A DNA stretch of 64,000 bases from Desulfobacteraceae bacterium (lineage in GTDB: Bacteria > Desulfobacterota > Desulfobacteria > Desulfobacterales > JAABTS01): positions 3,245-67,244 of the forward strand of contig JAABTS010000004.1 in NCBI GenBank assembly GCA_011389735.1, read 5' to 3'. The notes under the pieces are model-generated. The model had not been told where the DNA came from. It saw only the letters and a program-made list of their open reading frames with translations, and did no database searches. Every line of letters begins with the position of its first letter. The stretch's first letter is position 1. The position numbers and the translations under genes were made by a program. Shown piece after piece: positions 148-54,205 of the stretch.

Positions 148-358
148 ATAAGGTTTTCATAAATTAATTTCACAAGGCGGCGGCCCATTGAGCATATTAT
201 AAGCGGTTCAAATATTGAATTTCAGTGCGTTATCGGTCCGAGACGTACGCCTTACATTATCTCCTCCCTCTATCCTTCTGGAATGTAATATCTGAAAAGC
301 CATGTTCGTATATCACGGAGCCGACAATACAGTGAAATTTGATTTCCGGAAGTATATA
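148..358 (-). mobile_element. Family A MITE (reverse) with a nested A' variant at about 198-303
   Basis: Ends GGTTTTCATAAATTAATTTCAC...GTGAAATTTGATTTCCGGAAGTATATA. The inner 105-bp copy closely matches 54101-54205. Confidence 0.75.
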
Positions 359-389
359 AAACCTTTTTTTCAAACTGTATTGCCCGGAA

Positions 390-590
390 CTAACTCATTA
401 CACCGGTGTTCCGGGCGATCTGTTCGACTTTTTGCAGTACCGCGGGATCGTCAACAGTTGTGTAATCGAATTTATCGGGATCGATTCCTTTAAGAATGAG
501 TTTTGTTCTGGTGATTGTGGCGAGAGTCGGGTCGCCACCGGATCGTTTTTCAATGATTTCATCGATAAGCTTTCTTGTGCGTCCTCTCAT
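390..590 (-). CDS. Small conserved hypothetical protein of the type found beside FIST/MCP genes
   Basis: 66 aa, motif IDEIIEKRSGGDP...TRTKLILKGIDPDKF...DDP. Co-oriented upstream of the FIST-like ORF. Confidence 0.65.
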   Translation of the reverse strand: MRGRTRKLIDEIIEKRSGGDPTLATITRTKLILKGIDPDKFDYTTVDDPAVLQKVEQIARNTGVMS

Positions 591-628
591 TTATCTGAAC
601 ACCCCGTTGTTTATCAGGTTACATGCGC

Positions 629-720
629 ATAACGCCTTCCGGAAATAAAATCCCTCAGCGTTGTCGGACCAGGATATGCCAACAGTCCCGCCGCCTTGTG
701 AAATTTAAATTTTGAAAACC
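629..720 (+). mobile_element. Family A MITE, internally deleted
   Basis: GCCTTCCGGAAATAAAAT...CCGCCTTGTGAAATTTAAATTTTGAAAACC. Confidence 0.65.
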
Positions 721-971
721 CGCACACATTTTCCATGCAAGCTATACGGATTTGCATTGCGGATTTAATACATACGCAAAGTAAAAATAAATTTTCGGAC
801 GGCCCAATACAATTTTCAGCGTTAAACTTAATTTAATTCAAAAGATAATTCACCTTCAATATAAAAGTCAAGAATAAAACAATACTCGTTCAGGTTTGGA
901 TTCATTTATGCAATGATTATATCTCTTCTCGCCTCCGAAACAAATTTTGCCTGATATATCAAGCAGTTTGC

Positions 972-1262
972 TATATGCTTCCGGAAACCAAATTTCACTG
1001 TGTCGCCGGCCCTGGATATACGAGTAGGGGCCTGGTTCTAAGTTCGGCCATAATTTTTCTGGTTGCTCCGGAGCGCCAAAGTCGGAGACTGCGCTTCGTA
1101 AGTCGCGGGTTACAAACCCGCTCAGAGCAAGAGACCCGCTCGGAGGGGGTTTGCAACCCCCGGCTTACTCCGGCGCTCTGGCCGATCTTAGAATCAAGCC
1201 CTACGAGTAGTATGATCCCGGGCCTGCCGCTTGGTGAAATTTAAATTCTGAAAACCTTTATA
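972..1262 (+). mobile_element. Family A MITE interrupted by a family B element
   Basis: A left half 972-1027 and right half 1202-1262 flank the B insertion. Confidence 0.8.
1028..1201 (+). mobile_element. Family B MITE (174 bp) with REP-like hairpin cargo
   Basis: TIRs GGGCCTGGTTCTAAGTTCGGCCA / TGGCCGATCTTAGAATCAAGCCC. Flanking direct repeat TACGAGTA(G) at 1019-1027 and 1202-1210. Near-identical to 6220-6393. Confidence 0.85.
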
Positions 1263-1402
1263 TTCGGTTACGGCCCGGCGTAAGGGGCGGACTCATTTAC
1301 ATGTTCGAAGGAAACGCATGTTGATTTTTTTCTGTTTTAATGTTTTATTCAGTCCTGTTGTTTTCTTGAGCTTGTAATCGTGCTACAGTTTTGCAGATAT
1401 TA

Positions 1403-1621
1403 TATAGATTTTCAAGCATCCTTCATAAACCCAGGAAAGTGGTTGACACTTTCCAAGTCGGGATCGGGATCGGGATCCCGATTTTGATGAAACTGTAAAC
1501 AAGAAATGAAGGATGCCCATTTTCAGGAATTAAATTTCACCAGGCGGGGCGCCCGAGATAACACTGTTCGTATGTCCCAGGCCGTCAACTCAGTGAAATT
1601 GAATTTCCGGAAGGCGATATA
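1403..1621 (-). mobile_element. Family A MITE whose terminal repeat is split by a family C element
   Basis: Removing 1415-1525 restores the A end TATAGATTTTCAGGAATTAAATTTCAC. Confidence 0.75.
1415..1517 (+). mobile_element. Family C MITE (short variant)
   Basis: TIR GCATCCTTCAT/ATGAAGGATGC. Flanks GATTTTCA / CATTTTCA (7 of 8 match). GGGATC hexamers inside. Confidence 0.75.
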
Positions 1622-1640
1622 ATCCACTTAGGAAAAGGAG

Positions 1641-2408
1641 ATGTACATGAAAGGAAGAAGAGCACCGCTGTTATACGTTATTCCCTTAATTCTGATTTCT
1701 CTGTGCGGTATTGCACACGCTGACGAAATAACACTGACGAGTTGCGACTGGGAACCCTACACGGGAGAAAATATGCCGGGCTATGGGTTCACCGCTGAAA
1801 TTATCGACAGAGCGATGAAACGGGTCGGCCATAAAGTGACCTTCGTATTTTATCCCTGGAAAAGAGCCGTGTACGAAACAAAAAAAGGCCGGGTTCACGG
1901 CGCGTTTTCCGCCTACCACAGCAAGGAGAGGGCCGAGACCTTCGCTTTGTCGGAACCTTACGCCTTCAGTCAGTTGATGCTGTGCGCCAAAAAGGGAAGG
2001 GAAGTCATCTATAATTCTATCGAGGATTTAAGGCCGTATCGAATCGGTGTGGTTGCAGGGTATGCGAATACAGCGGAAATTGACGGCGCGCATTATTTGA
2101 CAAAAGATGAAGCGCCGTCGGATCTGTTAAACATCAAAAAATTGCTGACGAACCGGGTTGACTTGATTGTAGTCGACCGCTATGTAGCCGTTTATCATGT
2201 TAAAAATTCCGCAGCCATTGAATACACTGTCAATGATATTGATTTTATTGAACCGCCGCTAAAAAAACAGCCCATCTATATCATGTTTTCCAGGGCCGTC
2301 CCCGGATATCAACGCTACGTAGCGGATTTCAACAAAGGGCTCGAGCTTGTGAAGGCGGACGGAAGTATCGGCAACATTATGGAAAAGTACGGATTTTTCA
2401 ATCAGTGA
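1641..2408 (+). CDS. Periplasmic substrate-binding protein (SBP family 3-like)
   Basis: Signal peptide, DWEPY...GF..EI, YPWKRA, GRV/NRVDL motifs. RBS AAGGAG. Confidence 0.85.
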   Translation: MYMKGRRAPLLYVIPLILISLCGIAHADEITLTSCDWEPYTGENMPGYGFTAEIIDRAMKRVGHKVTFVFYPWKRAVYETKKGRVHGAFSAYHSKERAETFALSEPYAFSQLMLCAKKGREVIYNSIEDLRPYRIGVVAGYANTAEIDGAHYLTKDEAPSDLLNIKKLLTNRVDLIVVDRYVAVYHVKNSAAIEYTVNDIDFIEPPLKKQPIYIMFSRAVPGYQRYVADFNKGLELVKADGSIGNIMEKYGFFNQ

Positions 2409-2556
2409 CGCCTGTAAACGCTCAAAACGTTTTAATCGCATACGTTATTGTTAACAGCGACCAGTTCGCTTTTCGCAAGGTTTTTAGAACATGGTAAAGG
2501 CTATAGCGGCCTGGCGGGCACGCCTGTCATTGCGAACATCAGGGGAGGGGCGGCAA

Positions 2557-3000
2557 ATGAAAGCGGCCGGGATAAACATTGCGGCGCTATCGGCGCTCTT
2601 GGTTTGTATCGGATGCGTCGGTCCGAATTTGTCGGCGGTGGAATGGATTCAGCGGGGCTCGGAATTCGAAAAGGAGGGCCGTTACGCCGCTGCGGCGAAA
2701 GCCTACACGAAGGCGTTGAACAAGGATCCCGGCGATGCGAACGTTTATATGTATCGCGGTTTGGTGTACACCATGCTCGGAAAATGGGAGCGGGGGATCG
2801 CGGATCTGACGACCGCTCTGAAAATCAAGCCGGACAGCGCCCTTTTTTATACCATACGGGGAATCATGCGATTCGACCACGGGGATTTTGAAAAGGCGGT
2901 TGAAGATGCGGAACAGGCGACCCGGCTAGATCCGGAAAGCTATAAAACGTTCCGCCGGGATATGGAAACCGAAATCCGTAAACTGAAGCATAAAAAATAA
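2557..3000 (+). CDS. TPR-repeat protein, probable lipoprotein
   Basis: Hydrophobic N-terminus with CIGC lipobox-like site. TPR motifs (AYTKAL..DP..ANVYMYRG). Confidence 0.75.
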   Translation: MKAAGINIAALSALLVCIGCVGPNLSAVEWIQRGSEFEKEGRYAAAAKAYTKALNKDPGDANVYMYRGLVYTMLGKWERGIADLTTALKIKPDSALFYTIRGIMRFDHGDFEKAVEDAEQATRLDPESYKTFRRDMETEIRKLKHKK

Positions 3001-3182: not shown

Positions 3183-3244
3183 AAAAATAAAGCCGGCCCG
3201 ACCTGCAGGTTTTAAGAAATTTATTTTTTTCTGTAGAACCCGGA

Positions 3245-4270: not shown

Positions 4271-4309
4271 GACCCCTCCCCTTAAAATGTCCGACATCGG
4301 TTATAGCTA

Positions 4310-4410
4310 TAGCCTTCCGGAAATTGAATTTCCCTGCGTAATCGGCCCGGGATATCCGAATCGTATGATCCCGATTCGCCGCCTGGTGAAATTTAATCTC
4401 TGAAAACCTA
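4310..4410 (+). mobile_element. Family A MITE, complete short form (101 bp)
   Basis: TA|TAGCCTTCCGGAAATTGAATTTC...GTGAAATTTAATCTCTGAAAACCTA|TA. Confidence 0.85.
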
Positions 4411-4435
4411 TAGGAAAAATAATCTTCCGGGTCAA
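4407..4435 (-). promoter_or_regulatory. Putative sigma70 promoter for the galT-like gene; -10 formed by the MITE end
   Basis: Minus strand TTGACC-N17-TATAGG. Confidence 0.4.
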
Positions 4436-4494
4436 GACGGGATTGCAAATATTTCCAAAATTATGGATTAATATTCCAATTTTTTAACTTCGCC

Positions 4495-4556: not shown

Positions 4557-4663
4557 TAGAGCCTTCCGGAAATCAAATTTCGCTGGGTTGTCGGCCTGGG
4601 ATATACGAAATTGTATTATCCAGGGCCGGCCGTATTGTGAAATTTCATTTCTGAAAGGCTATA
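4557..4663 (+). mobile_element. Family A MITE, short form
   Basis: GCCTTCCGGAAATCAAATTTC...GTGAAATTTCATTTCTGAAAGGCTATA. Confidence 0.8.
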
Positions 4664-6092: not shown

Positions 6093-6097
6093 GAAGA

Positions 6098-6576
6098 CCG
6101 CTTTTCATAAATTAATTTCACAAAGCGGCCGGCCCGGGATCATTCTATAGCTTTTCAGATAATTAATTTCACTGCGTTGTCGGCGCGGGGATATACGAAT
6201 TTTATTATGTTGAATGTTGGGGCTTGGTTCTAATTTCGGCCATAATTTCTCGGGTTGCTCCGGAGCGCCAAAGCCGGAGACTGCGCTTCGTAAGTCGCGG
6301 GTTACAAACCCGCTCAGAGCAAGAGACCCGCTCAGAGGGGGTTTGCAACCCCCGGCTTACCCTGGCGCTCTGGCCGATCTTAGAATCAAGCCCGAATGTT
6401 GAATGTGAATTTCCCCCATTTAGCATTTAACATTTAGCATTCAACATAAATAATTTAGCATTGAACACAAAATTCAACAATTTCGGGCCTGCCGCCTTAT
6501 GAAATTTAATTCCTGAAAAACTATATTCTTGTATCCCGGGCCGGCGACACGCTGAAATTAAATTATCTGAAAGGCC
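6098..6576. mobile_element. Triple-nested MITE: A(-) contains long A(+) 6148-6523, which contains B 6220-6393
   Basis: Inner A is flanked by TA (6146-47, 6524-25). B is flanked by GAATGTTG (6212-19, 6394-6401). The outer halves rejoin into a short A. Confidence 0.85.
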
Positions 6577-6942: not shown

Positions 6943-7132
6943 TACAGGTTTTCAGATATTACATTTCAGAAGGCTCGAGGGAGGAGATAATAGGCATCTT
7001 TCATAAATGCTGATAAATAGTTTACACTTCCCAAATAGGTATGGGTATCGAATTATTACGATCCCGATCCCGATCCCGATCCCGATTTTGATGAAACTGT
7101 AAACAAGAAATGAAGGATGCCGGAAGACTATA
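6943..7132. mobile_element. A' remnant with family C element (6993-7121, 129 bp)
   Basis: C TIRs GGCATCTTTCAT / ATGAAGGATGCC, near-identical to 45682-45810. Left flank is half an A'; right flank is only the A tip GGAAGACTATA. Confidence 0.8.
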
Positions 7133-8597: not shown

Positions 8598-9467
8598 ATG
8601 CATTACGAAGGAAACATTATCAGGCCGCCCAGCGAAGCGAACAGCATTCTGCTTCAGGCGACCGTCGGCTGTTCGCATAATAAATGCACGTTTTGCGGCG
8701 CTTATAAAGGCGAGCGGTTCAAGATTAAAAAAGACGATATCATTATGGCGGATATTGAATACGCCGCGGCTCATTTCCAGCGGATGCGCCGTTTATTCAT
8801 CTGCGACGGGGACGCGCTGATCATTCCCCAGGCCAGATTGTTGAATATTTTAAAGGCGATCGAGGAGCGCCTGCCCTGGGTGACTCGTGTCGGCGTTTAC
8901 GCCAACACCAAAGGAATCAAAATGAAAACGCCCGAAGAGCTGGCGGAACTTCGTGAACACGGGCTAAAAATCGCATACATGGGGCTTGAAACCGGCGACG
9001 ATGAAACTCTGGCCGCCATAAAAAAAGGCGCCGACAAGGCTAAAATGATTGAAATGGGCCGGAAGATGAAAGCGGCGGGGATCAAACTATCGATCACCGT
9101 TCTTTTGGGGATTGCGGGCCGGTCGAGATCCAAAATCCACGCCGTGGAAACGGGAAGAACGCTGACGGAAATCGATCCCGATTACGTAGGCGCCTTGAGC
9201 GTGATGCTCATCCCGGGAACTCCGCTTCACGACGATTACCAAACCGGAAATTTCACCTTGATCGAACCGGATGAAATGCTCCGGGAACTTAGAATCATGA
9301 TCGAACGGACGGATTTGACAGGCGGGCTTTTTCATGCGAACCACGCCTCAAATTACCTGCCTATCAGAGCGAGGATGCCGAAAGACAAGCAAGCGACTCT
9401 GGATTTGATCGACAGCGCCCTGTCGGGGGAAATCGGTTTGAAACCTGAATGGATGAGAGCTTTGTAG
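8598..9467 (+). CDS. Radical SAM protein
   Basis: YEGNIIRPPSEA N-terminus, CxxxCxxC (CSHNKCTFC), GLETG, NHASNY. Confidence 0.9.
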   Translation: MHYEGNIIRPPSEANSILLQATVGCSHNKCTFCGAYKGERFKIKKDDIIMADIEYAAAHFQRMRRLFICDGDALIIPQARLLNILKAIEERLPWVTRVGVYANTKGIKMKTPEELAELREHGLKIAYMGLETGDDETLAAIKKGADKAKMIEMGRKMKAAGIKLSITVLLGIAGRSRSKIHAVETGRTLTEIDPDYVGALSVMLIPGTPLHDDYQTGNFTLIEPDEMLRELRIMIERTDLTGGLFHANHASNYLPIRARMPKDKQATLDLIDSALSGEIGLKPEWMRAL

Positions 9468-9672
9468 TTTTTTAGAAATCTAATTTCACAAGGCGGCGGG
9501 CCCGGGATTGTTGCATTTTGTGTTGAATGATGAATTATTTATGTTGAATGCTAAATGTTAAATGCTAAATGAGGGGCGCTCACATTCAACATTCAACATT
9601 CAACATTCAACATAATATAATTCTTATATCCCCGGGCCGACAAAGCAGTGAAATTAATTATCTGAAAAGCTA
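9465..9672 (-). mobile_element. Family A MITE, long form with heptamer repeats
   Basis: Both A TIRs; (TTCAACA)4 and TGCTAAA/TGTTAAA heptamers. The terminal TAG doubles as the stop codon of the upstream CDS. Confidence 0.8.
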
Positions 9673-9717
9673 TATCAACTTGAATACGGAAATATTATGG
9701 AAGGAGAGATTGGAAAG

Positions 9718-14604: not shown

Positions 14605-14668
14605 CTGTTGTTTCCGTTTCCCCTTTAATTGTATGCTTCCCGGCCCGCCGGCTCGTAAAACCAAATTT

Positions 14669-15325
14669 CTAAAAACCCTGTAATTGTATCGCCTGATCCG
14701 TCAACAGCGATTTGAAACGGTCCAGGGTTATCGGATACGGTTGAATCGGAATTCCCATCCAGTCGGAATATTCGAGGAATTCCTCCGGTTTTTCAGCCAT
14801 GCATTGATCCACATATCCGATTCCGTCCAGAACAACTGCGCCGCCGGTGTGACGGGGGAAATTCTCATTGGCGATTCCTTTGTCCCATCCTTTGAATACG
14901 TCCTCCCGAAATTCGATCCAGCCGGGCGTCATCCACCAGACCTTTTCGCCTCCGGCCACTTCCATGCCGATTTTTTCCCGTTCCGCCTCATCGGCGAGCA
15001 TATCCATACAATGCGTGGCCTGAATCCGGCACACCCCGGGCCCCTCTTCCTCGATGATGTTTTGCATGACTCGAGTGGGTTCATTCACATTGACATAACA
15101 GTATTTCCCGCCATACACGACAATGACTTTGCCGGTTTTTTCCTTCGCTTTACGGATACTCTTTACAAGCCTCCGCTCCAGTTCAGGGATGTCCTGATGA
15201 AGTCCCGGTTTTGTGTAAAATATGCTGTGCGCGTCCAAAAAGCCTTCCTTTTTCAAATAATTCAGCTCAAGACTCATTGTCCCGCAGGCAACGATAGCGA
15301 TGTCCGAAAACGTTACAGTGTCCAT
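14669..15325 (-). CDS. DUF1638-domain protein
   Basis: IVACG, PGLH, VVYG..C, HCMDML, WMTPGW motifs; typical RACo neighbour. Confidence 0.8.
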   Translation of the reverse strand: MDTVTFSDIAIVACGTMSLELNYLKKEGFLDAHSIFYTKPGLHQDIPELERRLVKSIRKAKEKTGKVIVVYGGKYCYVNVNEPTRVMQNIIEEEGPGVCRIQATHCMDMLADEAEREKIGMEVAGGEKVWWMTPGWIEFREDVFKGWDKGIANENFPRHTGGAVVLDGIGYVDQCMAEKPEEFLEYSDWMGIPIQPYPITLDRFKSLLTDQAIQLQGF

Positions 15326-17541: not shown

Positions 17542-17636
17542 AATGTTGAATGTGAGTCCCCCCATTTAGCAATCGACACAAAATGCAACGATCCCGGGCC
17601 GGCAACCTGTTGAGATTTAATTTTCAGAGGACAATA
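17542..17636 (+). mobile_element. Partial long family A element (right half)
   Basis: TGTTGAATGTGAGTCCCCCCATTTAGCA...CCCGGGCC...GAGATTTAATTTTCAG. Confidence 0.6.
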
Positions 17637-17650
17637 TCCATATTTTTTAA

Positions 17651-18041
17651 GGGCCTGGTTCTATCTTCGGCCATTTTCATTTATCGGGATCGGGTTCGAA
17701 ACTGAATCCTTCGATAACGATCCCGATCCCGATCCCGATCCCGATCCCGATTTGGATTCAAAAACTTCAAGCCCAATCACTAAACTGATGGCTGAAGTTA
17801 TAGCTTTTCAGATAATTAATTTCATTTCGTTGTCGGCCCGGGGATATACGAATTTTATTATGTTGGATGTTGGATGTTGAATGTTGGATGTGAGTCCCCC
17901 CATTTAGCATTTAACATTTAGCATTCAACATAAATAATTTAGCATTCAACATAAATAATTTAGCATTGAACACATAATTCAACAATCCAGCGCCCGCCGC
18001 CTTATGAAATTTAATTCCTGAAAAGCTATAGAACCAATACC
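17651..18041 (+). mobile_element. Family B MITE with GATCCC cargo; right TIR interrupted by long family A (17801-18028)
   Basis: 8-bp duplication TTTTTTAA (17643-50, 18042-49). GAAGT-TA-[A]-TA-GAACC restores the B TIR. Confidence 0.88.
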
Positions 18042-21807: not shown

Positions 21808-22749
21808 ATGGATGAACAAAAGCTCAAAAGAATCCTTGCGGGCCATAAAATCTGGCTGGAAACGGAAGCGCGAGGCGGCGAACGCGCATTATTGAAAGGG
21901 GCGGATCTTACCGGCGCTGATTTGATGCGCGCCAATCTTCAACGCGCTGATCTACGGAATGTCGTGCTTCAAAACGCCAATTTGCAGGAAGCCAATCTTC
22001 AGGAGGCGAATTTGAAAAACGCGGATTTGAAAAACGCGGATCTTCGAATCGCCTATCTCCGGTTGAGCAATCTTAACGGCGCCGACCTTGAAAGAGCGAA
22101 TTTACGAGGCGCCGATCTATGGGTGTCTGATCTATCGAACGCCAATTTGAAAGAAGCCAATCTAAGGGAGGCCAACCTCCAGGAATCCAATCTGAAAGGC
22201 GCCGTTCTGGAAGGCGCCAACCTGAAATTCGTAAAACTGACCAGATCGACGTATGACCAGATTCCCGAAACAGTTAAATCAGTCTTTGCAAAAAGCTGGC
22301 ATGTTATCGGTGCGGATGAGGCCGAAGATGACGAGGTCGAACAGTTTATCGATTTCCCATTGGCGCAGCGCAGTTCCGTCATTCGGATTCTGGAGGATTT
22401 CGCCGGCGCCCTCGACCAGCGATTCACCGATCAACCAGGAGTTATCCGAATTTCGTTTCAGGGAGAAAAGGTTTTTTTGGCCGTAGATCCGGCTGACGGA
22501 GAAAGAGTGATTATTGAAAACTATCTGAAGATCGATGAAGCCCCTCGGTCCGGTGAAGGTGGGGTTTTTATCGACATGTCGGCCGCTGAAAACGGAAACG
22601 CCGCTCCTGTGTCCCATGAACAGCCGTCTTTGGACATTGTTTCCGATATCGAAAGCAGGCTCAAACGGATCAAGCGACTTTATGACGACGGGCTGATAAC
22701 CCGAGAGGAATTGACCCGTAAGCGCGCAGCGCTTCTGGAGCGGCTATAG
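21808..22749 (+). CDS. Pentapeptide-repeat protein with C-terminal SHOCT domain
   Basis: More than 20 A(N/D)Lxx repeats; RLKRIKRLYDDGLITREEL..KRA.LL. Confidence 0.88.
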   Translation: MDEQKLKRILAGHKIWLETEARGGERALLKGADLTGADLMRANLQRADLRNVVLQNANLQEANLQEANLKNADLKNADLRIAYLRLSNLNGADLERANLRGADLWVSDLSNANLKEANLREANLQESNLKGAVLEGANLKFVKLTRSTYDQIPETVKSVFAKSWHVIGADEAEDDEVEQFIDFPLAQRSSVIRILEDFAGALDQRFTDQPGVIRISFQGEKVFLAVDPADGERVIIENYLKIDEAPRSGEGGVFIDMSAAENGNAAPVSHEQPSLDIVSDIESRLKRIKRLYDDGLITREELTRKRAALLERL

Positions 22750-22850
22750 TCTTCCGGAAATTTGTTTTCACCGCGTTTCCGATGCGGTATAAACCAACCG
22801 AATTGAGCCGGAACCGCCGTTTTGTGAAATCAAATTTCTGAAAACCATAT
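22747..22850 (+). mobile_element. Family A MITE, diverged
   Basis: TA|TAGTCTTCCGGAAATT...GTGAAATCAAATTTCTGAAAACC. The TAG is the upstream gene's stop codon. Confidence 0.7.
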
Positions 22851-22960: not shown

Positions 22961-25900
22961 ATGCGATACATCCTTATAATGTTCGGGATAATGTTCGGGC
23001 TTTTACCATTCGGGGCGGCCATGTTTTCCGGCGCCGCTCATGCGGCGATTTCCTTATCGGAAAGAGCGGCGTTGATCCGCATTTACGAACAGACCAACGG
23101 CGACGGATGGATCGACAGGAGCGGATGGAAGGAAGGGAATCTCGATTCAGACGGTTTTGCGTTATCAGGAACCGAACACGAATGGAACGGCGTATACATT
23201 GAAGAAGATCATGTGACCGCCCTTTTTCTGGGGAGCAACAATCTCACCGGAACCGTTTCCTCAATGGCCGGCCTTCCATATCTCAAACATATCGATTTTT
23301 CTTACAACTCTCTGTCCGGCGAAATCCCGTCCGATCTGGCCGATATATCCGGCCTCGAGCATATCGATTTTACAAGCAACGCGTTCAGCGGCAGGGTACC
23401 CCCGGGAAACACCGGATTGACCGGCCTGACCTACCTGTCCCTCGGCGACAATCAGCTTCAGGGAGAAATCCCGCCGGGAATCGGGAATCTCGCTCAATTA
23501 ACCGTTTTAAATTTAAGTTTCAACGCCTTTAGCGGGGCGATTCCATCAGGAATCGGAAACATGGCGGCGCTCGAATACCTTTCTCTTTCCAACAACGCTC
23601 TTACCGGCGCCGTTCCGGCGGATATCGGCCAATGCGCCCGGCTGGTCGAGCTGGATCTGAGCAACAACCGTTTGACCGGTTCGATCCCCGAAAACCTCTA
23701 TAATTTAGGGAACCTGCAATATTTTTCCGTTTACGAAAATCAGTTGACCGGCGGAATTTCAAGCAGCATCGGCAATCTGGCCAATCTGAACACACTGTAT
23801 ATTTGCTGCAATTCTTTTGAAGGGCCGCTTCCCGAAACGCTGGGAAATTTAACCAACCTGGAGCGTCTGCACGCCTACGAAAACCGGTTCAGCGGGCCGA
23901 TCCCGTCGAGACTGGGAAATCTAACCAATCTTATCGATTGTTATCTGACCGATAACCAGTTTTCCGGAAGTCTTCCGCCTGAGCTGGGAAATTTAAAAAA
24001 ACTCGAGACGCTCGAAGTGTACAACAATTCCCTGTCCGGTGAAATTCCTTCGTCTTTGGGGGAACTGACATCTCTAAAACGGCTCGATCTGGACTTGAAC
24101 CGGTTTGAGGGGAGTATCCCCGCATCTTTGGGTAACCTGGCGAACCTTGAAGGGCTATATATTTCACGAAACGCCCTGACCGGAACTATTCCCCGGGAAA
24201 TCGGAAAGCTGAAGAAACTCGAGTTTCTGAAACTCCACGATAACGCCATTGAAGGCGCGATTCCGGAGGCTATTGGGAATCTGAGCAGTCTAAAAACTTT
24301 ATCGCTCTACAACAATTCGCTTACCGGCCGAATCCCGCCCGCCATCGGAAATCTGACCGGTCTGGAAATTTTATACCTATGCTGCAACGCCCTTACCGGC
24401 CCCATCCCTCCGGAAATCGGAAACCTGCCGAACCTTCAGGAAATGCATGTTTTCGACAACGCTCTGTCCGGCGCCATTCCTCCCGAAATCGGGAATCTAA
24501 CCCGTCTCGTGGAATTGAAAGCCGGCGGGAACGCTCTGACAGGAGAGATACCGTCCGAAATCGGAAAACTGACCAGTCTGTCCAGCCTTATTCTGAATGA
24601 CAATCAACTGACCGGAAACGTTCCGGAGTCGTTCATGAACCTGACCCGCATTCAAGAAGGCGAACTCAATCTTTGCGGCAATGATTTAAGCTCGACGGAC
24701 ACGAATTTGAACGATTTTCTGGATTCCAAACACGGATACGACTGGCTGGAATGTCAAAAAACAGATGACGGCGGAGAGGACGATTTTTATATCAACGGAC
24801 TGATCGTCAACATACATCATCCGGACGGCTCCTTTACAACTCGAATATACGTCTGCGGCCTGTTTCCCGAGCCCGTGGAATCGCTTTCCGTCGCCGGGCC
24901 TTCGGGAGATCCGCTTTTTGATCTGAATTCCATCGGCCGGGACGAAAACAGCGATTGCTATGTTGGAAAATTGAACGGGCGTCCCGAGCCGGGCGAATAT
25001 TCGTTTTCCGTGTCCGGAGCCGGAAAACAATTTTACGAAAAAGAAATATACGAAGCCGGCGTCATGCCCGTCCCCGATCCCGCATCCATGACGCCTGCCG
25101 ATGGCGTCCATACCGGCTCCGATGTTCCTGAATTCACCTGGGCGCCGGTCGATTACGGCCAGCCGACTTATTACCGGGTTGAAATCATGGATCAAAACAA
25201 CAGAACGGTCTACATTTCAGACCCCCTTGACAACGTTTTGTCCCACACGGTCCCTGACTGGGCCCTCGAACCGGGCCGGCCTTATTCATGGCGTCTTATC
25301 GTAGCGGACGCGCCTGACCATCGAACAGCGCCGCACCAATCCAGAAGCGCCTGGATCAATTTTACCAGCGGATTGTCAGATCAGGACGAAATTCCGAAAC
25401 CCAGGGTTTTGGGACCCGGCTATAACGCGCTGTTCCAGGGAGGGGCTGTGACATTGAGCGTCGACGGCGCTCCCATAGAGGCGCACGGCGTCAAGGCAAG
25501 GTGGAAAATCCGGCGGTTCGACAGGGGATATGCGTGCCCTGACTGTGATTACGACCCGGAGATCGATCAAACAACTGCATCCGCATCCCTGACTGTTCAG
25601 GATAGTTTGATATTGAATATGAAATATGCGTGGAAAGTAAGATTTGAATATGATGAAAACCATTATTCGGAATGGTCGGAAGAGCGGTCTTTTCTTTATG
25701 GGGAACTCACCAGGGACGCCCACGGCGTCATCCCCGGCGGCGCCGGAATCGAGAATTTCGATATGATATCGGCAGTTTGCTGGCCTGATGATCCATATTC
25801 CAATTACGTTTTCGGATCGGCCGTGACGGATTATGAACACAATTTCAGGATCGGAACCTATGATCCGGAAAATGACTGGTACAAGGTGTTCGGTTCCGGT

Positions 25901-26443
25901 GAATTTATTGTTAAACCGGGCGTTTCCATGTGGTTTCTGTCCCGCGCCGATTTCAACGTCGTGTTCACCGGGGTTCGGGTCAGCACGGAGGTCGATATTG
26001 AAGTGGATTTGAAAAGGGGATGGAACATGATCGCCTGTCCGAATCCGGAGAACTATGAGTGGGCGTCCGTCAAAGTCGTTCAATATGTGGATGGCTCGAA
26101 GGATGAAATTCGGCGGAACCCGGTTTACATCGGAGATCCGGGGGCCGCTGATTTGATCAGGAATGCGGAATACTGGGAGTGGAACAACGGCGCCTATTTA
26201 GCCATGCAATCCGGCGTTCTTTACGCCCGCAACGGTTACTGGACGAATGCGTCGGCGGATCATGTTTCTCTGCGTTTTACTCGCGAAGCCCGTATTGCCG
26301 CTCTCGCCGGCGCCGAATTTCGGAAGCCTCGCCGGTCCGCGCAACGGGACGGCGAAAGCCCTCCGCCCCCCATGAACAGTCTGAATGAAAATTTAAAGGA
26401 TGATATCGGCGGATGCTTTTTAAACACGCTTCAGGAACGCTGA
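22961..26443 (+). CDS. Secreted leucine-rich-repeat protein (plant-type 24-aa LRRs) with C-terminal GGCF motif
   Basis: Signal peptide, ERAAL...TNG..W cap, about 20 LxxLxLxxNxLxGxIP repeats, beta-rich C-terminal half, ends GGCFLNTLQER. Confidence 0.9.
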   Translation: MRYILIMFGIMFGLLPFGAAMFSGAAHAAISLSERAALIRIYEQTNGDGWIDRSGWKEGNLDSDGFALSGTEHEWNGVYIEEDHVTALFLGSNNLTGTVSSMAGLPYLKHIDFSYNSLSGEIPSDLADISGLEHIDFTSNAFSGRVPPGNTGLTGLTYLSLGDNQLQGEIPPGIGNLAQLTVLNLSFNAFSGAIPSGIGNMAALEYLSLSNNALTGAVPADIGQCARLVELDLSNNRLTGSIPENLYNLGNLQYFSVYENQLTGGISSSIGNLANLNTLYICCNSFEGPLPETLGNLTNLERLHAYENRFSGPIPSRLGNLTNLIDCYLTDNQFSGSLPPELGNLKKLETLEVYNNSLSGEIPSSLGELTSLKRLDLDLNRFEGSIPASLGNLANLEGLYISRNALTGTIPREIGKLKKLEFLKLHDNAIEGAIPEAIGNLSSLKTLSLYNNSLTGRIPPAIGNLTGLEILYLCCNALTGPIPPEIGNLPNLQEMHVFDNALSGAIPPEIGNLTRLVELKAGGNALTGEIPSEIGKLTSLSSLILNDNQLTGNVPESFMNLTRIQEGELNLCGNDLSSTDTNLNDFLDSKHGYDWLECQKTDDGGEDDFYINGLIVNIHHPDGSFTTRIYVCGLFPEPVESLSVAGPSGDPLFDLNSIGRDENSDCYVGKLNGRPEPGEYSFSVSGAGKQFYEKEIYEAGVMPVPDPASMTPADGVHTGSDVPEFTWAPVDYGQPTYYRVEIMDQNNRTVYISDPLDNVLSHTVPDWALEPGRPYSWRLIVADAPDHRTAPHQSRSAWINFTSGLSDQDEIPKPRVLGPGYNALFQGGAVTLSVDGAPIEAHGVKARWKIRRFDRGYACPDCDYDPEIDQTTASASLTVQDSLILNMKYAWKVRFEYDENHYSEWSEERSFLYGELTRDAHGVIPGGAGIENFDMISAVCWPDDPYSNYVFGSAVTDYEHNFRIGTYDPENDWYKVFGSGEFIVKPGVSMWFLSRADFNVVFTGVRVSTEVDIEVDLKRGWNMIACPNPENYEWASVKVVQYVDGSKDEIRRNPVYIGDPGAADLIRNAEYWEWNNGAYLAMQSGVLYARNGYWTNASADHVSLRFTREARIAALAGAEFRKPRRSAQRDGESPPPPMNSLNENLKDDIGGCFLNTLQER

Positions 26444-26591: not shown

Positions 26592-26935
26592 TATAGTCTT
26601 CCGGAAATTTAATTTCACTGCGTTGTCGGCCCGGGATATACTAAATTTATTATGTTGGATGTTGGATGTTGGATGTTGAATGTTGGATGTTGAATGTTGA
26701 ATGTTGGATGTAGGATGTTGAATTTGAGTGCCCCATTTAACATTTAACATTTGGAATTACTGCTCTGAGCGGGTTTGTAACCCGCGTCTACCCTCTCGCG
26801 GCCAACGGGGATTACAAATCCCCTTGGAGCGTGAGGAGGTTTTCGTTCATCCACTAATTATGCTGAATGTTGGATGTTGAATGTGATTGCCCCATTTAAC
26901 ATTTAGCATCTAACATTTAACATTTTTTAACATTT
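26592..26935 (+). mobile_element. Long family A remnant with 10 heptamer repeats and an inserted D core (26761-26856)
   Basis: A left TIR; (TGTTGRA)10 at 26653-26722; D core with right TIR TTTTCGTTCATCCACTA. Confidence 0.75.
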
Positions 26936-26984
26936 TTTTATAAAATTCAGGCTTTAACGGAAATACGCATCAACACGGGCGCCT

Positions 26985-30893: not shown

Positions 30894-30922
30894 TTGACAT
30901 AAAAACATCTTTATCCTATAGT
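30894..30922 (+). promoter_or_regulatory. Sigma70 promoter whose -10 is the end of a family A MITE
   Basis: TTGACA-N17-TATAGT. Confidence 0.6.
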
Positions 30923-31030
30923 TTTCCGGAAATTCAATTTTACTGCGTTGTGGGACCGGGTATACATAATTTTATTATGTTGGATGTTGGATGTTGAATG
31001 TTGAATGTTGGATGTTGGATGTTGAATGTT
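30917..31030 (+). mobile_element. Left half of long family A with (TGTTGRA)7
   Basis: A left TIR; heptamers at 30978-31026. Confidence 0.75.
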
Positions 31031-32505: not shown

Positions 32506-32713
32506 ATCATCTCATGTCCGGAAATCGGTTTTAACAGAATTTTCGGCCCGCCGCACATCCGATGAAATCCGCCGGCCTTTGAAACAGTCTATTTATATAT
32601 CACAGGCCGGCGACACTCCGACATTCCATTTACGGAAGGCCATATAGTCCTCCGGGGATGGAATTTCTGAAAATCTATAACAAAAGAATCAGCCTTAAAA
32701 GACAGGAATTCTT

Positions 32714-34123: not shown

Positions 34124-34418
34124 AGTTCTTCAGGAATTAAATTTCATAAGGCGGCAGGCGCGGATTGTTGAATTTTGTGTTCAATGCTAAATTATTTATG
34201 TTGAATGCTAAATGTTAAATGCTAAATGGGGGACTCGCATTCAACATCCAAAATTCAACATTCAACATAATAAAATTCGTATACCCCCGGGCCGACAACG
34301 CAATGAAATTAATTATCTGAAAAGCTATAAATGGGGGAATCACATTCAACATTCAACATTCAACATTCGTATATCCCCGGGCCGGCAAAACACTGAAATA
34401 TTATTTCCGGAAGTCTGT
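34124..34418 (-). mobile_element. Long family A (34124-34327) plus adjacent partial copy overlapping the tesB 3' end
   Basis: Both TIRs and TTCAACA heptamers. The second copy ends ...GAAATATTATTTCCGGAAGTCTGT. Confidence 0.8.
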
Positions 34419-35336: not shown

Positions 35337-35441
35337 TATAGCCTTCCGAAAATTAAGTTTCACTGCTTTGTCGGCCCGGAATATGCGACAGTATTATACC
35401 AGGCCGGCCGACTTGTGAAATTGTAATTTTTGTAAAACCAT
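35337..35441 (+). mobile_element. Family A MITE, short form
   Basis: TATAGCCTTCCGAAAATTAAGTTTCAC...GTGAAATTGTAATTTTTGTAAAACC. Confidence 0.75.
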
Positions 35442-38977: not shown

Positions 38978-39295
38978 GTGGTAGGGCCGTCCCTACGCGG
39001 CGGCCGTTCAAGGGGCATTCATAAAACCGCATGAATTTTGGGGGTGGCCAATCCGTTATGGGCCCGAGAATATACCTGTGGTAGGGCCGTCCCTACGCGG
39101 CGACCGTTCAAGGGGCATTCATAACACCGCATGGATTTTGGGGATGGCCAACCCGTTATGGGCCCGAATATACCTGTGGTAGGGCCGTCCCTACGCGGCG
39201 GCCGTTCAGGGGGCATTCATAACACCGCATGGATTTTGGGGGTGGTCAACCCGTTATGGACCCGAACATACCCGCCACGTAGGGCGGGTCTACCA
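38978..39295. repeat. Tandem array of three 98-100-bp GTAG-type REP units closed by an inverted REP
   Basis: Units start GTGGTAGGGCCGTCCCTACGCGGCG at 38978, 39078 and 39176. Terminal CCGCCACGTAGGGCGGGTCTACCA. Confidence 0.85.
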
Positions 39296-42732: not shown

Positions 42733-43058
42733 TATAGCTTTTCAGACAATTAATTTCATCGCGTTGTCGGCCCGTGGATATACGAGTTATGTTGAGTGAG
42801 GTTGGAGGTTTCAGGGTACAGGGTGCAGGGTTTTTCATAATTATGGTTCTATAGCTTTTCAGATAATTAATTTCACTGCGTTGTCGGCCCGGGGTATACG
42901 AATTTTATTATGTTGAATGTTGAATGTTGAATGTTGAATGTTGAATGTTGAATGTTGAATGCGAATCCCCCATTTAGCATTTAACATTCAACATTCAACA
43001 CAAAATGCAACGCTCCCGGGCCTGCCGCCTTGTGAAATTGAATTCCTGAAAAACTATA
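42733..43058 (+). mobile_element. A left half + E fragment + complete long family A (42852-43056)
   Basis: Complete A flanked by TA (42850-51, 43057-58), inserted at GGTTC-TA; (TGTTGAA)7 at 42911-42959. Confidence 0.82.
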
Positions 43059-45869: not shown

Positions 45870-45905
45870 TATAGCCTTCCGGAAATCAAATTTCACAAGG
45901 CGGCA
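45870..45905. mobile_element. Isolated family A terminus
   Basis: TATAGCCTTCCGGAAATCAAATTTCACAAGGCGGC. Confidence 0.65.
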
Positions 45906-48198: not shown

Positions 48199-48252
48199 TG
48201 TCGCCGTGCTTGAACGCAACGGCGGACGTTTGACAGTCCCGCTCCATTTTGA

Positions 48253-48393
48253 TAAAGGTTTTAATTTCACAAGGCGGCGGGCCTGGGATGCGCCCTGATT
48301 TTTTTTCGGGAGGAAAGCAGCGATTTAAAAATTCGCTGTACATTTATACCCCGGACCGGCGACATAATGAAATTTCATTTCTGAAAACCTGTA
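48253..48393 (-). mobile_element. Family A MITE with a unique internal segment
   Basis: TTAATTTCACAAGGCGGCGGGCC...TGAAATTTCATTTCTGAAAACC. Confidence 0.65.
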
Positions 48394-51447: not shown

Positions 51448-51460
51448 TGGAGACGAATGT

Positions 51461-52447: not shown

Positions 52448-52448
52448 T

Positions 52449-53261
52449 ATGAATATGGACGATAAACGCATCGAAACAGAGGTGTTCGGAGTCACCTACG
52501 ACCGTTATGTGCTCATACAATTACATGGTCTTATCGCCGGAGAATTAGGCGTTCGCACTGTGGTCGAAACGCCGAGCCACGGCGCCAAAGCCGCAGGATC
52601 GCTATATTCAATCGGGTTCGGGCTCGCCGGCGCCGATGTAACCCTGGTGAATCCGGAACCTGAAATGATGTATGGCTGGGACGAACTGAACATCAGGGAC
52701 CGGGTAACCACCGTAACGGAAGACAATATCTACCGGACCGGTTTTTCGGATAATACGTTCGACCTGGCCTGGAATTTCGTCACCTGGACCGAGCTGAGCG
52801 ATCCGGCCGCATACCTGGCTGAAATGAAACGCATTTCGAAATCATATGTATTGCTGGTGACCTGTAATAATTTTCAACCCGGTTATCCCTGGCACCGGTT
52901 GCTTCATCTGCTGTTCGGATTTCCGTGGACGCACGGGAATGTAAAATACAACCATATTACGACCGTGCGGAAACTGTTCCGCCGATCCGGAATCGACGTG
53001 ATCGACTACGGCGCCATCGACTCACCCGGCTGGCCCGATCCCAGCGGCCCCAGAGACATACGCCTTCACAGGCGGTTTACCGTCCCCAAAGAAAAACCGG
53101 TCTGGCGAGTTCCCATCATCGATTATGTGAAAAACGATTCATATCCCGGATGGATGAAACGGTTGGGAAAACTGGATATGAAATTCAGGAAAGGCGTTGT
53201 TAAATTGCCGATCAGCCATTTGTTTTACGTGCTGGGGAAAACAAATGACATTAACGGCTGA
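52449..53261 (+). CDS. Class I SAM-dependent methyltransferase-like protein
   Basis: F.DNTFDL.WN....E..DP...L.EMKR.SK; motif I is atypical. Confidence 0.65.
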   Translation: MNMDDKRIETEVFGVTYDRYVLIQLHGLIAGELGVRTVVETPSHGAKAAGSLYSIGFGLAGADVTLVNPEPEMMYGWDELNIRDRVTTVTEDNIYRTGFSDNTFDLAWNFVTWTELSDPAAYLAEMKRISKSYVLLVTCNNFQPGYPWHRLLHLLFGFPWTHGNVKYNHITTVRKLFRRSGIDVIDYGAIDSPGWPDPSGPRDIRLHRRFTVPKEKPVWRVPIIDYVKNDSYPGWMKRLGKLDMKFRKGVVKLPISHLFYVLGKTNDING

Positions 53262-53319
53262 TTTGAATCCGATGGCCGGTTTTCAGCCGGTCGGCGTGGA
53301 AGTATCGCTTACATTTAGT

Positions 53320-53650
53320 CTCCCATTCGACAGTGGTAGGTATACGAAAACAGGAAAGCTGCGCCATTCAAGGGTTACAGTCTTGCACAAATGTGGTGTA
53401 GCGCCTGCAAATTTAGGAAGCGATTTTGAAAGCCCGGACTTTTTGGGGTGGGTCTATTTTCAGCTTTTTAAGTATGTAGCGCTGAGTTTTCGTCAATTTT
53501 GTGTACTTTAGTATATGCCCGTCTTTATGTAAAATTTTTCTGAATGGAGACTTATAATTGAATAATCTGGGTAAAGAACATGGGAAAACACAGTGTGTAT
53601 GAGATTCCTGAAATAACAACCGAACAATCGTTTGCACCCGATGGGAACTC
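53320..53650 (-). mobile_element. IS remnant, probably IS1634 family (transposase C-terminus only)
   Basis: AT-rich. Minus-strand KYTKLTKTQRYILKKLKIDPP resembles IS1634 C-termini. Candidate end CTCCCATTCGACAG. Confidence 0.45.
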
Positions 53651-53683
53651 CGCTGTTTTTCAAAGACAATTAAGGAAGAGTTT

Positions 53684-53831
53684 ATGCCAATAATTTCAAA
53701 ATTTTTTGGGATAATTATAAGAATGTTTTAAGATGAACATAATCCTCCCTCCTCATTTTCATGCGGAGTATCAAGAGAATAAAGCAGTGTTTGACTTAAA
53801 TGGAAATATGCTGAAAGGAGATTTGAAATAA
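53684..53831 (+). pseudogene. DUF4160-family (toxin-like) pseudogene
   Basis: MPIISKFFGIIIRMF*DEHNPP, frameshift, PHFHAEYQENKAVFDLNGNMLKGDLK*. Confidence 0.75.
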
Positions 53832-53932
53832 CCATTTCAAAAAGAAGGCGACCTGGAAGCGCTAAAGGAATTCTTAAGATTCTATTCGATGATGACGAAC
53901 ATCTTAATGACTTCAAGGGATACATGCCATGA
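53832..53932 (+). pseudogene. 3' fragment of an antitoxin gene
   Basis: RRRPGSAKGILKILFDDDEHLNDFKGYMP*; ATGA overlap with vapC. Confidence 0.65.
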
Positions 53933-54117
53933 ATGTTTTGTTCGATACTCAGGCGCTTCTTTGGTTTCTGCTTGATGATTCACGGTTGAGTGAAAATGCA
54001 CGGGAAAGCATTGTTTCTACAGGTGGACTGATTTTTGTCAGTCCTGCAAGCCTTTGGGAGATTGCAATAAAAATAAGCATAGGTAAGTATGCGCAACCTG
54101 CCCTTTTCAGATATTAA
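53929..54117 (+). pseudogene. vapC: VapC PIN toxin truncated at a family A' MITE
   Basis: LFDTQALLW...D.RLS...VSPASLWEIAIK...GK; only 62 aa. Confidence 0.8.
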
Positions 54118-54205
54118 ATTTCAGTGTGTTATCGGTCGGAGATATACGATTTGTATTATCTCTTCCCTCTATCTTTCTGAAATGTAAAATCTGAAAACCA
54201 ATATA
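54101..54205 (+). mobile_element. Family A' MITE
   Basis: TTTTCAGATATTAAATTTCAG...CTGAAATGTAAAATCTGAAAA. Confidence 0.75.

What the first reader, a model, noticed from the sequence alone, without database searches (positions are those of the whole stretch)
148..54205. Family A: a TA-duplicating ~100/~210-bp MITE with about 20 copies in 64 kb
Seen: consensus ends TAGCYTTYCRGAWATTAATTTCAC...GTGAAATTTAATTYCTGAAAARCTA in most long intergenic spaces. There are short (about 101-105 bp), long (about 205-230 bp, heptamer-filled) and A' subtypes. At 17799-18030 the element splits a family B TIR as GAAGT-TA-[A]-TA-GAACC, showing both the exact ends and TA duplication; 6146-6525 and 42850-43058 agree. 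Known: TA duplication typifies IS630/Tc1-mariner-mobilised MITEs (Correia, RUP, ERIC). Inference: at this density there could be more than 1000 copies genome-wide, and I do not recognise the family.
Basis: partly seen in the sequence, partly recalled or inferred. Interest (0 to 1): 0.72.

Follow-up and report, generated by a model that had tools for sequence, protein, structure and literature searches.

The report
Very abundant TA-targeting miniature transposon family
The window is peppered with copies of a roughly 105-bp (or roughly 210-bp) non-coding "miniature transposon" that occurs at more than a thousand places in this sulfate-reducer-type genome; it is a new family of a well-known kind of selfish DNA, not a new kind of system.

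Summary
A profile built from window copies finds 2195 hits merging into 1156 blocks (121,444 bp, 1.86% of the 6.52-Mb assembly); the window holds 24 blocks. Copies are about 105 bp, or 150-270 bp with an internal heptamer hairpin. They carry about 25-nt terminal inverted repeats and end TATAG...CTRTA.

Four nested insertions with paralogous empty sites, plus 17799-18030, show duplication of exactly TA.

The ends match (23-24 of 26-27 positions) the ends of IS630-family insertion sequences in Desulfonema magnum and in metagenomes. One D. magnum MITE carries one end of each type.

No such transposase is in this assembly.

Short copies are old (median 83% to consensus) and long ones younger (92%). 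382 of 407 lie outside ORF calls, without orientation bias.

Among 400 other same-order genomes sampled, the next highest motif counts are 76, 20 and 8, against 421 here.

Verdict: a new, exceptionally abundant, apparently orphaned IS630-type MITE.

The parts
148..360 (-). Family A copy (minus orientation) split in its centre by the A' copy at 207-303
   Evidence: Solo right end 151-186(-) and solo left end 304-353(-) flank the pair 207-303; sequence
207..303 (+). A' subtype copy nested in the centre of 148-360
   Evidence: Left-right pair, 97 bp
633..721 (+). Short copy, degenerate termini
   Evidence: Pair, 89 bp
972..1260 (+). Short copy carrying a nested family B element (about 1024-1201) flanked by a 9-bp direct repeat
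   Evidence: Pair, 287 bp; sequence; D19
1520..1621 (-). Short copy
   Evidence: Pair, 100 bp
4308..4412 (+). Short copy, full length, TATAG...CTATA
   Evidence: Pair, 105 bp, model 1-56 and 1-50
4557..4663 (+). Short copy
   Evidence: Pair
6097..6575 (-). Host A copy split at its central TA by the element 6146-6525
   Evidence: Solo ends 6099-6143(-) and 6524-6575(-); three uninterrupted paralogues with a single TA
6146..6525 (+). Long copy, TA-flanked, itself carrying a nested family B element (about 6216-6393)
   Evidence: Pair, 380 bp
6943..6991 (-). Solo right end
9463..9674 (-). Long copy; its terminal TAG is the stop codon of ORF 8598-9467
   Evidence: Pair, 210 bp; ORF list; in the syntenic G033 contig the aligned parts of the two genes (ending 4005, starting 3932) lie about 70 bp apart
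14632..14677 (+). Solo right end
17591..17633 (-). Solo left end
17799..18030 (+). Long copy inserted at the TA of a family-B-type terminal repeat: GAAGT-TA-[element]-TA-GAACC
22745..22850 (+). Short copy, diverged
   Evidence: Pair, 102 bp
26592..26960 (+). Long-type left end followed by heptamer arrays and a nested hairpin element; no recognisable right end
   Evidence: Solo left end 26592-26643, 60.5 bits; sequence
30917..31030 (+). Left end plus heptamer array, truncated
   Evidence: Solo left end; D3
32590..32644 (-). Solo left end
34125..34329 (-). Long copy
   Evidence: Pair, 205 bp
34343..34418 (-). Heptamers plus solo left end
35337..35441 (+). Short copy
   Evidence: Pair, 102 bp
42733..42849 (+). 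Left end of a variant with a GGGTGCA-type heptamer interior, cut off by the next element
   Evidence: Solo left end 42733-42785
42850..43058 (+). Long copy with 8 tandem heptamers, TA-flanked
   Evidence: Pair, 209 bp
45870..45904 (-). Solo end (terminal repeat only)
48250..48393 (-). 134-144-bp variant with a different centre
   Evidence: Pair 48260-48393
54098..54205 (+). A' subtype copy
   Evidence: Solo left call 54103-54149; as a single-sequence query it finds 209 hits genome-wide, ordinary A copies possibly among them

Best explanation
Family A is a non-autonomous DNA transposon (MITE) derived from, and moved in trans by, an IS630-family (DDE_3) transposase of the clade found in Desulfonema magnum and in many sediment and soil metagenomes.

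Inferred from that family's known chemistry: the transposase binds the roughly 25-nt terminal inverted repeats, cuts the element out and pastes it into a TA dinucleotide, which ends up on both sides.

Shown here: the terminal repeats, the TA duplication, nesting into the loops of other repeats, and homology of the ends to IS630-family IS ends.

The family amplified in at least two waves, an old short form and a younger long form whose interior is an expandable heptamer hairpin. It reached more than 1000 loci and survives almost only between genes.

Inferred, less certain: the cognate transposase has been lost from this genome, so most or all copies are now immobile fossils.
For: Structure: among 407 well-bounded copies the conserved unit is TATAG...CTRTA. 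The outer T, A are 89% and 94% conserved on the left and 90% and 85% on the right, and composition is background beyond them. Lengths peak at 102-105 bp.

TA duplication: 8 of 13 paralogous filled/empty pairs overlap by exactly 2 bp. These are 4 distinct good elements, for example C127:156-378 against C118 with 96.7% identical flanks, and one of the 8 is a tandem artefact. 17799-18030 sits in a B-type end.

Partner clade: the D. magnum IS is 1326 bp, TA-flanked, with 26-nt terminal repeats 92% complementary. Its protein scores 174.3 bits on NF033545 against a cut-off of 100, and 91.5 bits on PF13358. It has two copies at 100% and 99% identity. A 104-bp D. magnum MITE carries the A-type end on one side and, on the other, an end identical at 26 of 26 positions to the IS end. 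In metagenome relatives, IS ends differ from the A-type 27-mer at 2-5 of 26 specified positions, as in L149, L151, L084 and L083.

Selfish-DNA behaviour: 382 of 407 copies lie outside ORF calls in a genome called 83.7% coding. Orientation in tandem spacers is 118 same against 101 opposite.

Lineage-specific insertion: 0 family A hits in 12 loci of three other genomes that are syntenic or similar to window genes.

Age: short copies have median identity 0.83 to consensus. Long copies have 0.92, and 13 of 48 are at least 0.95.
Against: No transposase of the matching clade is in the assembly. PF13358 finds one locus (L001) whose own ends are unrelated. 67 clade transposases give 0 tblastn hits at E<=0.01. 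The assembly is a 477-contig draft, 96.9% complete, in which multi-copy IS often fail to assemble, so absence is weak evidence.

The TA duplication rests on paralogous, not allelic, empty sites, and 5 of 13 pairs do not give a 2-bp overlap. Formally a TA-ended element inserting without duplication gives the same picture.

No close relative is held for orthologous empty sites.

Paired columns keep pairing slightly more than shuffles (0.834 against 0.818, sd 0.0014). Compensatory double changes number 258 against 145 +/- 10. That could mean selection on the hairpin rather than pure decay, though subfamily structure can also produce it.
Confidence: 0.87

Rival explanations
1. REP/BIME-like palindromic elements spread by a Y1 (RAYT, IS200/IS605-type) transposase rather than by an IS630-type enzyme.
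For: The genome has 9 Y1_Tnp (PF01797) matches. The element is a long imperfect palindrome found between genes.
Against: 0 of 9 Y1 loci are flanked on both sides by family A, and only 2 of 9 have one A end within 600 bp. Insertions show a 2-bp TA duplication, whereas IS200/IS605-type insertion makes none (established knowledge). The 25-nt ends match IS630-family IS ends.
Confidence: 0.03
2. A domesticated or functional hairpin element: RNA or DNA structure under selection, for example an mRNA stabiliser or terminator, a protein-binding site, or a contingency locus through the heptamer array. On this reading its origin as a MITE is only history.
For: The consensus folds to about -52 kcal/mol as RNA on either strand. 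There is an excess of pair-keeping double changes, 258 against 145 +/- 10. The subterminal stem differs between subfamilies by changes on both arms (consensus comparison). Heptamer arrays vary from 1 to 9 units in long copies and reach 40 units genome-wide. Of the 33 genes whose stop lies in an element, 20 use the terminal TAG as stop codon.
Against: No orientation bias relative to genes, 118 against 101. Both strands fold equally. Short copies are heavily decayed (median 83%) with 567 unpaired ends. No Rfam family matches. Relatedness of copies within subfamilies can produce the covariation excess without selection.
Confidence: 0.08
3. Still mobile, moved by the one IS630-family transposase that the assembly does hold (L001, C476) or by a cognate IS that failed to assemble.
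For: L001 encodes an intact 454-aa IS630-family protein (NF033545, 172 bits) with TA-flanked 24-27-nt ends. 13 of 48 long copies are at least 95% identical to their consensus. 71 of 940 contig ends carry family A, so repeats do break the assembly.
Against: The L001 ends share at most a short GTTTT..GAAA..TT stretch with family A ends. The L001 protein is not hit by any of 67 clade transposases at E<=0.01. No element-precise skipping joint was among the 15 joints listed of 173.
Confidence: 0.25

Closest known systems
RUP (repeat unit of pneumococcus), Streptococcus pneumoniae, proposed to be moved by IS630-Spn1
   Same: About 107 bp, intergenic, with terminal inverted repeats resembling those of an IS630-family IS. 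Targets contain TA, and it inserts into other mobile elements (passages read in PMC2229807). Family A shows the same logic: about 105 bp, TA, ends matching an IS630-family IS, and nesting in other repeats.
   Different: RUP has 108 copies (PMC2229807 passage) against about 1150 blocks here. The pneumococcus carries the proposed partner IS; this assembly does not. The host phylum is unrelated. I did not compare the sequence with RUP directly, because no reference copy was at hand.
IS630-family insertion sequence of Desulfonema magnum (L052:849-2174) and its metagenome relatives (L083, L149, L084 and others)
   Same: Ends begin TATAG and continue with a TTTTCAGA..A/T-rich..TTTCA(C) pattern. They match the family A ends at 23-24 of 26-27 positions and are TA-flanked.
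   Different: These are 1.2-1.3 kb and encode a 363-aa transposase. Family A has no coding capacity, and its interior (a GC-rich subterminal stem, or heptamer arrays) is unrelated to the IS interior.
ERIC/IRU of enterobacteria and Correia elements of Neisseria
   Same: Small, TA-ended, palindromic, intergenic repeats with target duplication. ERIC reaches 711 copies in Photorhabdus luminescens and Correia more than 120 (PMC10969869, section 3.2 and passages).
   Different: No sequence match of a family A copy in 20,395 E. coli records; that those genomes carry ERIC is recalled. The copy number here exceeds the highest figure in that review section. I did not compare with Correia directly.
The 'Desulfatirhabdium butyrativorans' MAG elements (G031 = G037)
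   Same: Same family: full-length profile hits of 65.9-91.4 bits in 10 copies. The consensus is identical at 90 of 106 positions and is closest to the A' subtype.
   Different: 76 motif matches against 421. The sampled copies are 82-97% identical to their own consensus, but they were picked by an exact 21-mer, which favours young copies. Host coding DNA is only about 70% identical to the window.

Membership tests
Bacterial MITE (non-autonomous DNA transposon) | Terminal inverted repeats | tested here: met
   About 25-nt ends conserved at both termini in 407 bounded copies
Bacterial MITE (non-autonomous DNA transposon) | Target-site duplication shown by filled against empty sites | tested here: met
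   A 2-bp (TA) overlap in 8 of 13 paralogous pairs, which are 4 distinct good elements, plus 17799-18030. These are paralogous, not allelic, sites
Bacterial MITE (non-autonomous DNA transposon) | Small, non-coding, many dispersed copies | tested here: met
   Mode 102-105 bp; 1156 blocks on the 477 contigs
Bacterial MITE (non-autonomous DNA transposon) | Ends homologous to those of an autonomous IS | tested here: met
   D. magnum IS and metagenome IS; a hybrid-ended D. magnum MITE
IS630/Tc1-mariner-mobilised element | Duplication of a TA dinucleotide | tested here: met
IS630/Tc1-mariner-mobilised element | The matching IS encodes an IS630-family DDE transposase | tested here: met
   NF033545 at 174.3 bits (cut-off 100); PF13358 at 91.5 bits
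IS630/Tc1-mariner-mobilised element | Cognate transposase present in the same genome | tested here: not met
   One DDE_3 locus with unrelated ends. tblastn of 1 and then 67 clade proteins: best E 0.019, a chance hit inside a 710-aa ORF, then 0 hits. The assembly is a draft, so this is weak
IS630/Tc1-mariner-mobilised element | Transposase-dependent movement | not testable with these tools
   Needs a mobilisation assay
REP/RAYT system | Y1 transposase gene flanked by the repeats; no target duplication | tested here: not met
   0 of 9 Y1_Tnp loci are flanked on both sides; TA duplication is present
Described RNA family (Rfam 15) | Match at the family's gathering score | tested here: not met
   Only a tRNA in the window. 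Sub-threshold hairpin (miRNA-precursor) and snoRNA noise on three copies
ERIC / RUP / Correia (by sequence) | Sequence similarity to the named family | tested here: inconclusive
   No match in E. coli genomes, plasmids or phages. No reference RUP or Correia sequence and no ISfinder were at hand

The most novel reading that the evidence does not exclude
The hairpin is not just a relic. Family A, above all the young long form whose heptamer arms pair through G·T on one strand and expand from 1 to 40 units, has been co-opted as a structured, length-variable intergenic element. It could be an RNA or DNA hairpin that tunes neighbouring genes or genome architecture. That would explain why pairing is kept more than chance allows, and why more than 1000 copies persist without their transposase.
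Probability: 0.1. Interest if true: 0.6.

Novelty: new member of a known kind. Interest (0 to 1): 0.4.

Why it matters
The count of about 1150 blocks (1.86% of the genome) for a single MITE family exceeds the largest figure given in the copy-number section of a 2024 review of prokaryotic MITEs, which is 711 ERIC copies in Photorhabdus (PMC10969869).

The family gives a clean, testable pairing of a MITE with an IS630 clade that is widespread in sediment metagenomes: 220 relatives among 364 candidate stretches.

It shows how a transposase-less genome can keep a large fossil population.

For practical annotation of Desulfobacterales MAGs, it explains a good part of the long intergenic spacers and some contig breaks, and the element's terminal TAG supplies stop codons.

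It does not reveal a new mechanism.

Tried and rejected
1. Autonomous copy inside this genome. 21 left-right pairs lie 500-10,000 bp apart. I took the 6 of them that are 1.0-1.6 kb long and hold an ORF of at least 278 aa; all 6 hold ordinary genes (binding protein, kinase, FolE2, amidohydrolase, pseudouridine synthase, GGDEF). The other 15 were not scanned individually, but they are covered by the genome-wide PF13358 and tblastn searches.

2. The weak tblastn hit at C163 (E 0.019) lies inside a 710-aa ORF and is chance.

3. Orthologous empty sites. The 30 nearest genomes held are only 'same order'. Three genomes reached through loci share about 63-80% DNA identity in genes only, so no base-level empty site could be read. 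The 12 syntenic or similar loci simply lack family A.

4. Sequencing runs. The first request was unanswered and was repeated unchanged. Nine runs were listed, 8 of them holding part of the stretch, from 4 studies. No RNA holder was listed.

5. Laying Logan contigs of 4 runs on window:1-20000. No element-precise skipping joint was among the 15 joints shown of 173. One loose end in X3 at 17800 runs on into the sequence that follows the element, which is an empty form, but the flank is itself a repeat, so it may be a paralogue. Contigs cannot show rare alleles.

6. Rfam at gathering and at E<=1, plasmids, E. coli genomes and phages gave nothing.

7. Papers. 0 hold both 'miniature inverted-repeat transposable' and 'Desulfonema'. 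Of the 16 papers holding at least 3 of MITE / IS630 / sulfate-reducing / Desulfobacter, 10 were listed, and none of those describes such a family, judged from titles and abstracts.

8. Look-up of earlier findings by sequence gave nothing.

9. TIR-only matches in G009 and G003 have no transposase beside them.

10. L048 in G031 is an ordinary A copy beside a truncated, unrelated DDE_3 fragment.

11. In L150 the best-matching ends turned out to belong to tiny MITEs beside the IS, not to the IS itself.
Full report
WHAT IS THERE

The window is G000:C341:3245-67244 of a 6.52-Mb, 477-contig draft with 48.8% G+C, rated 96.9% complete.

That is because it describes one subtype. The repeat finder recovers both ends as families of 17 and 13 copies.

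A profile built from seven window copies finds 1493 hits genome-wide. Of these, 487 are full length, with lengths peaking at 102-105 bp. A rebuilt whole-element profile gives 2195 hits at E<0.01. Separate left-arm and right-arm profiles give 1933 non-overlapping end calls.
- 683 adjacent left-right pairs: 472 are 90-120 bp and 88 are 150-260 bp.
- 567 unpaired ends.

Merged, this is 1156 blocks covering 121,444 bp, or 1.86% of the assembly. The window holds 24 blocks covering 3147 bp, made of 14 pairs and 14 solo ends. Four of the solo ends are two host copies split by nested insertions. The observation and the extrapolation to more than 1000 copies are confirmed.

ANATOMY

In 407 well-bounded copies the conserved unit begins TATAG and ends CTRTA. 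Just outside it the composition is background.

The two arms are inverted repeats for about 25 nt. An asymmetric internal loop follows, then an 11-bp GC-rich subterminal stem and a short loop. The consensus folds at about -52 kcal/mol as RNA on either strand.

The left and right arms differ consistently, so copies can be oriented.

The long form keeps both ends. In the centre it has a run of ATGTTGR heptamers facing a run of CATTYAR heptamers, 1-9 units in 48 copies. Genome-wide there are 169 arrays of at least 3 such heptamers, up to 40 units long, and 123 of them lie within 250 bp of a family A end.

The A' subtype has a different subterminal stem.

TARGET DUPLICATION

I searched the 60-bp left and right flanks of all 407 copies separately against the genome. 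I kept places where both flanks hit next to each other, which gave 13 filled/empty pairs.
- In 8 pairs the flanks overlap by exactly 2 bp, the TA. One of the 8 is a tandem artefact. The other 7 come from 4 elements: C127:156-378 (two paralogues, flanks 84-97% identical), window 6146-6525 (three paralogues), C457:20986-21090 and C30:11398-11642.
- The other 5 pairs gave overlaps or gaps of 0, +2, +2, +3 and -1 in more divergent paralogues.

Three of the four elements sit at the central TA of another A or A' copy.

The B-type end reads GAAGT-TA-[element]-TA-GAACC, while the other end of the same B-type element reads GGTTCTATC uninterrupted.

42850-43058 is TA-flanked, but I found no clean comparator.

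These are paralogous, not allelic, empty sites. As always, 'TA duplicated' and 'TA-ended element inserted without duplication' cannot be told apart from sequence alone.

WHO MOVES IT

This assembly has one DDE_3 locus. It is a two-ORF IS630-family element whose TA-flanked ends are unrelated to family A.

Six left-right pairs 1.0-1.6 kb apart enclose ordinary genes.

A 21-nt end motif scanned over one genome per species found 18 loci. Ten are in a MAG titled Desulfatirhabdium butyrativorans. The others are in Desulfonema magnum, three further Desulfobacterales or deltaproteobacterial MAGs, a Desulfobacterales bacterium record (HSG2), and one Sumerlaeota bin that looks misbinned.

I then scanned 30 DDE_3 loci from five of those genomes for the end motif. 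Two D. magnum loci stood out.
- L052 holds a 1326-bp, TA-flanked IS with 26-nt terminal repeats that begin TATAG and run through TTCAGAAAAATAATTTCA.
- Its 363-aa protein matches NF033545 'IS630 family transposase' at 174.3 bits (cut-off 100) and PF13358 at 91.5 bits.
- The chromosome has two copies.
- A 104-bp D. magnum MITE (in L015) has the family A type of end on one side. Its other end is identical at 26 of 26 positions to the IS end.

Relatives of this transposase are common in metagenomes: 220 confirmed among 364 candidate stretches, with 80 kept. Complete elements of 1246-1342 bp there (L083, L149, L084, L151) have TA-flanked ends that differ from the A-type 27-mer at only 2-5 of 26 specified positions.

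More distant members (41-45% protein identity; L044, L049) share only the outer TATAG..TTT.A.GAAAA part.

Family A therefore carries the ends of this IS630 clade.

None of 67 clade proteins hits this assembly at E<=0.01. The D. magnum protein's best hit is a chance match. In a short-read draft this absence is weak evidence.

HISTORY AND BEHAVIOUR

Short copies are old. Median identity to consensus is 0.83, and only 22 of 299 have a neighbour at 0.95 or more.

Long copies are younger. Median identity is 0.92, and 13 of 48 are at 0.95 or more.

With a crude ORF-based gene call (83.7% coding), 382 of 407 copies lie outside ORFs. The other 25 fall in ORF calls.
- 219 lie in tandem spacers, with orientation 118 the same as the genes and 101 opposite.
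- 107 lie in divergent spacers.
- 27 lie in convergent spacers.
- 29 lie at contig edges.

Of the 33 genes whose stop lies inside an element, 20 stop at the element's own terminal TAG. ORF 8598-9467 in the window is one of them.

Paired columns stay paired slightly more often than in shuffles (0.834 against 0.818, sd 0.0014), with 258 pair-keeping double changes against 145 +/- 10. Subfamily relatedness can produce this, so I do not read it as proof of selection.

DISTRIBUTION

With the 21-mer at up to 2 mismatches, this genome has 421 matches and the reversed control has 0.

Among 400 other genomes drawn from the same order, 35 have any match. The highest counts are 76 (the 'Desulfatirhabdium' MAG), 20, 8 and 6.

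That MAG has true family A copies at 65.9-91.4 bits. Their consensus is identical at 90 of 106 positions and is closest to A'. Its genes are only about 70% identical in DNA to the window's.

Twelve loci of three genomes that are syntenic or similar to window genes have no family A copy. The insertions are therefore lineage-specific. Whether the family is shared by descent or by transfer stays open.

RIVALS

A REP/RAYT origin is disfavoured. There are 9 Y1_Tnp loci, but none is bracketed by family A, and insertions duplicate TA.

A described RNA family is excluded at Rfam's thresholds.

A functional, co-opted hairpin cannot be excluded. It has against it the lack of orientation bias and the heavy decay.

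COMPARISON WITH WHAT IS KNOWN

The closest described analogue is RUP of the pneumococcus: 107 bp, 108 copies, tied to IS630-Spn1 by similarity of the ends and by TA targets (passages of PMC2229807).

A 2024 review gives 711 ERIC copies in Photorhabdus as its highest bacterial figure in the copy-number section (PMC10969869, section 3.2).

Family A matches nothing in E. coli genomes, plasmids or phages. Two full-text searches found no paper on such elements in Desulfonema or Desulfobacter-type bacteria. ISfinder could not be queried.

My work agrees with it. It adds the census, the empty sites, the IS630 partner clade and the distribution.

VERDICT

This is a real, new and exceptionally abundant member of the IS630-mobilised MITE kind. 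It is probably orphaned in this genome. It is interesting for its numbers and for the clean MITE-IS pairing, not for a new mechanism.

Noticed in passing
window 1024-1201 and 6216-6393; also 17651-18041, 11817-, 21577-: A second MITE family (family B, ends GGGCYTGGTTCTAA...) is nested inside family A copies with 8-9-bp direct repeats at its flanks. A B-ended variant carries GATCCC hexamer arrays.
   Followed up: partly
G000 genome-wide; window 26664-26760, 42908-42965: ATGTTGR heptamer arrays: 169 arrays of at least 3 units, up to 40 units. 98 perfect arrays of at least 4 units have the unit AACATTC, by far the commonest heptamer tandem in the genome. 123 of the 169 lie next to family A ends.
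   Followed up: partly
G000 genome-wide; window 9463-9467: Of the 33 genes whose stop lies inside a family A copy, 20 end exactly at the element's terminal TAG. The element ends carry a ready-made stop codon in one frame.
   Followed up: partly
L001 = G000:C476:16274-19765: The only IS630-family element of the assembly has two ORFs (267 aa with HTH domains, then a 454-aa transposase). Its TA-flanked 24-27-nt ends are unrelated to family A.
   Followed up: partly
G000:C435:7650-7851 against C374:25874-25998 and C141: The paralogous 'empty' sites read TAAATA where a single TA is expected. This is either a paralogue difference or an excision footprint.
   Followed up: no
window 42733-42849; G000:C217:17269-17534, C251:14013-14263: A family A variant whose interior is a different heptamer hairpin (GGGTGCA-type units) around a GGTTCC core. 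It may be a third nested element.
   Followed up: no
window 23445-24571: A 72-nt periodic repeat lies inside the 1160-aa ORF 22961-26443 and looks like leucine-rich-repeat-type units (D6).
   Followed up: no
window 38978-39285: Three tandem copies of an about 100-bp unit, 83-86% alike (D12).
   Followed up: no
L028 and L029: A Desulfobacteraceae MAG contig and a 'Candidatus Sumerlaeota' MAG contig give identical profile hits (48.5 bits, same coordinates). This is probably the same DNA binned into two MAGs.
   Followed up: no
L050/L052 1187-1296; D. magnum chromosome: The D. magnum IS itself carries, near its right end, an about 106-bp hairpin element that recurs elsewhere in that chromosome at 95-96% identity (4 full hits). 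This is another MITE, nested in the IS.
   Followed up: no
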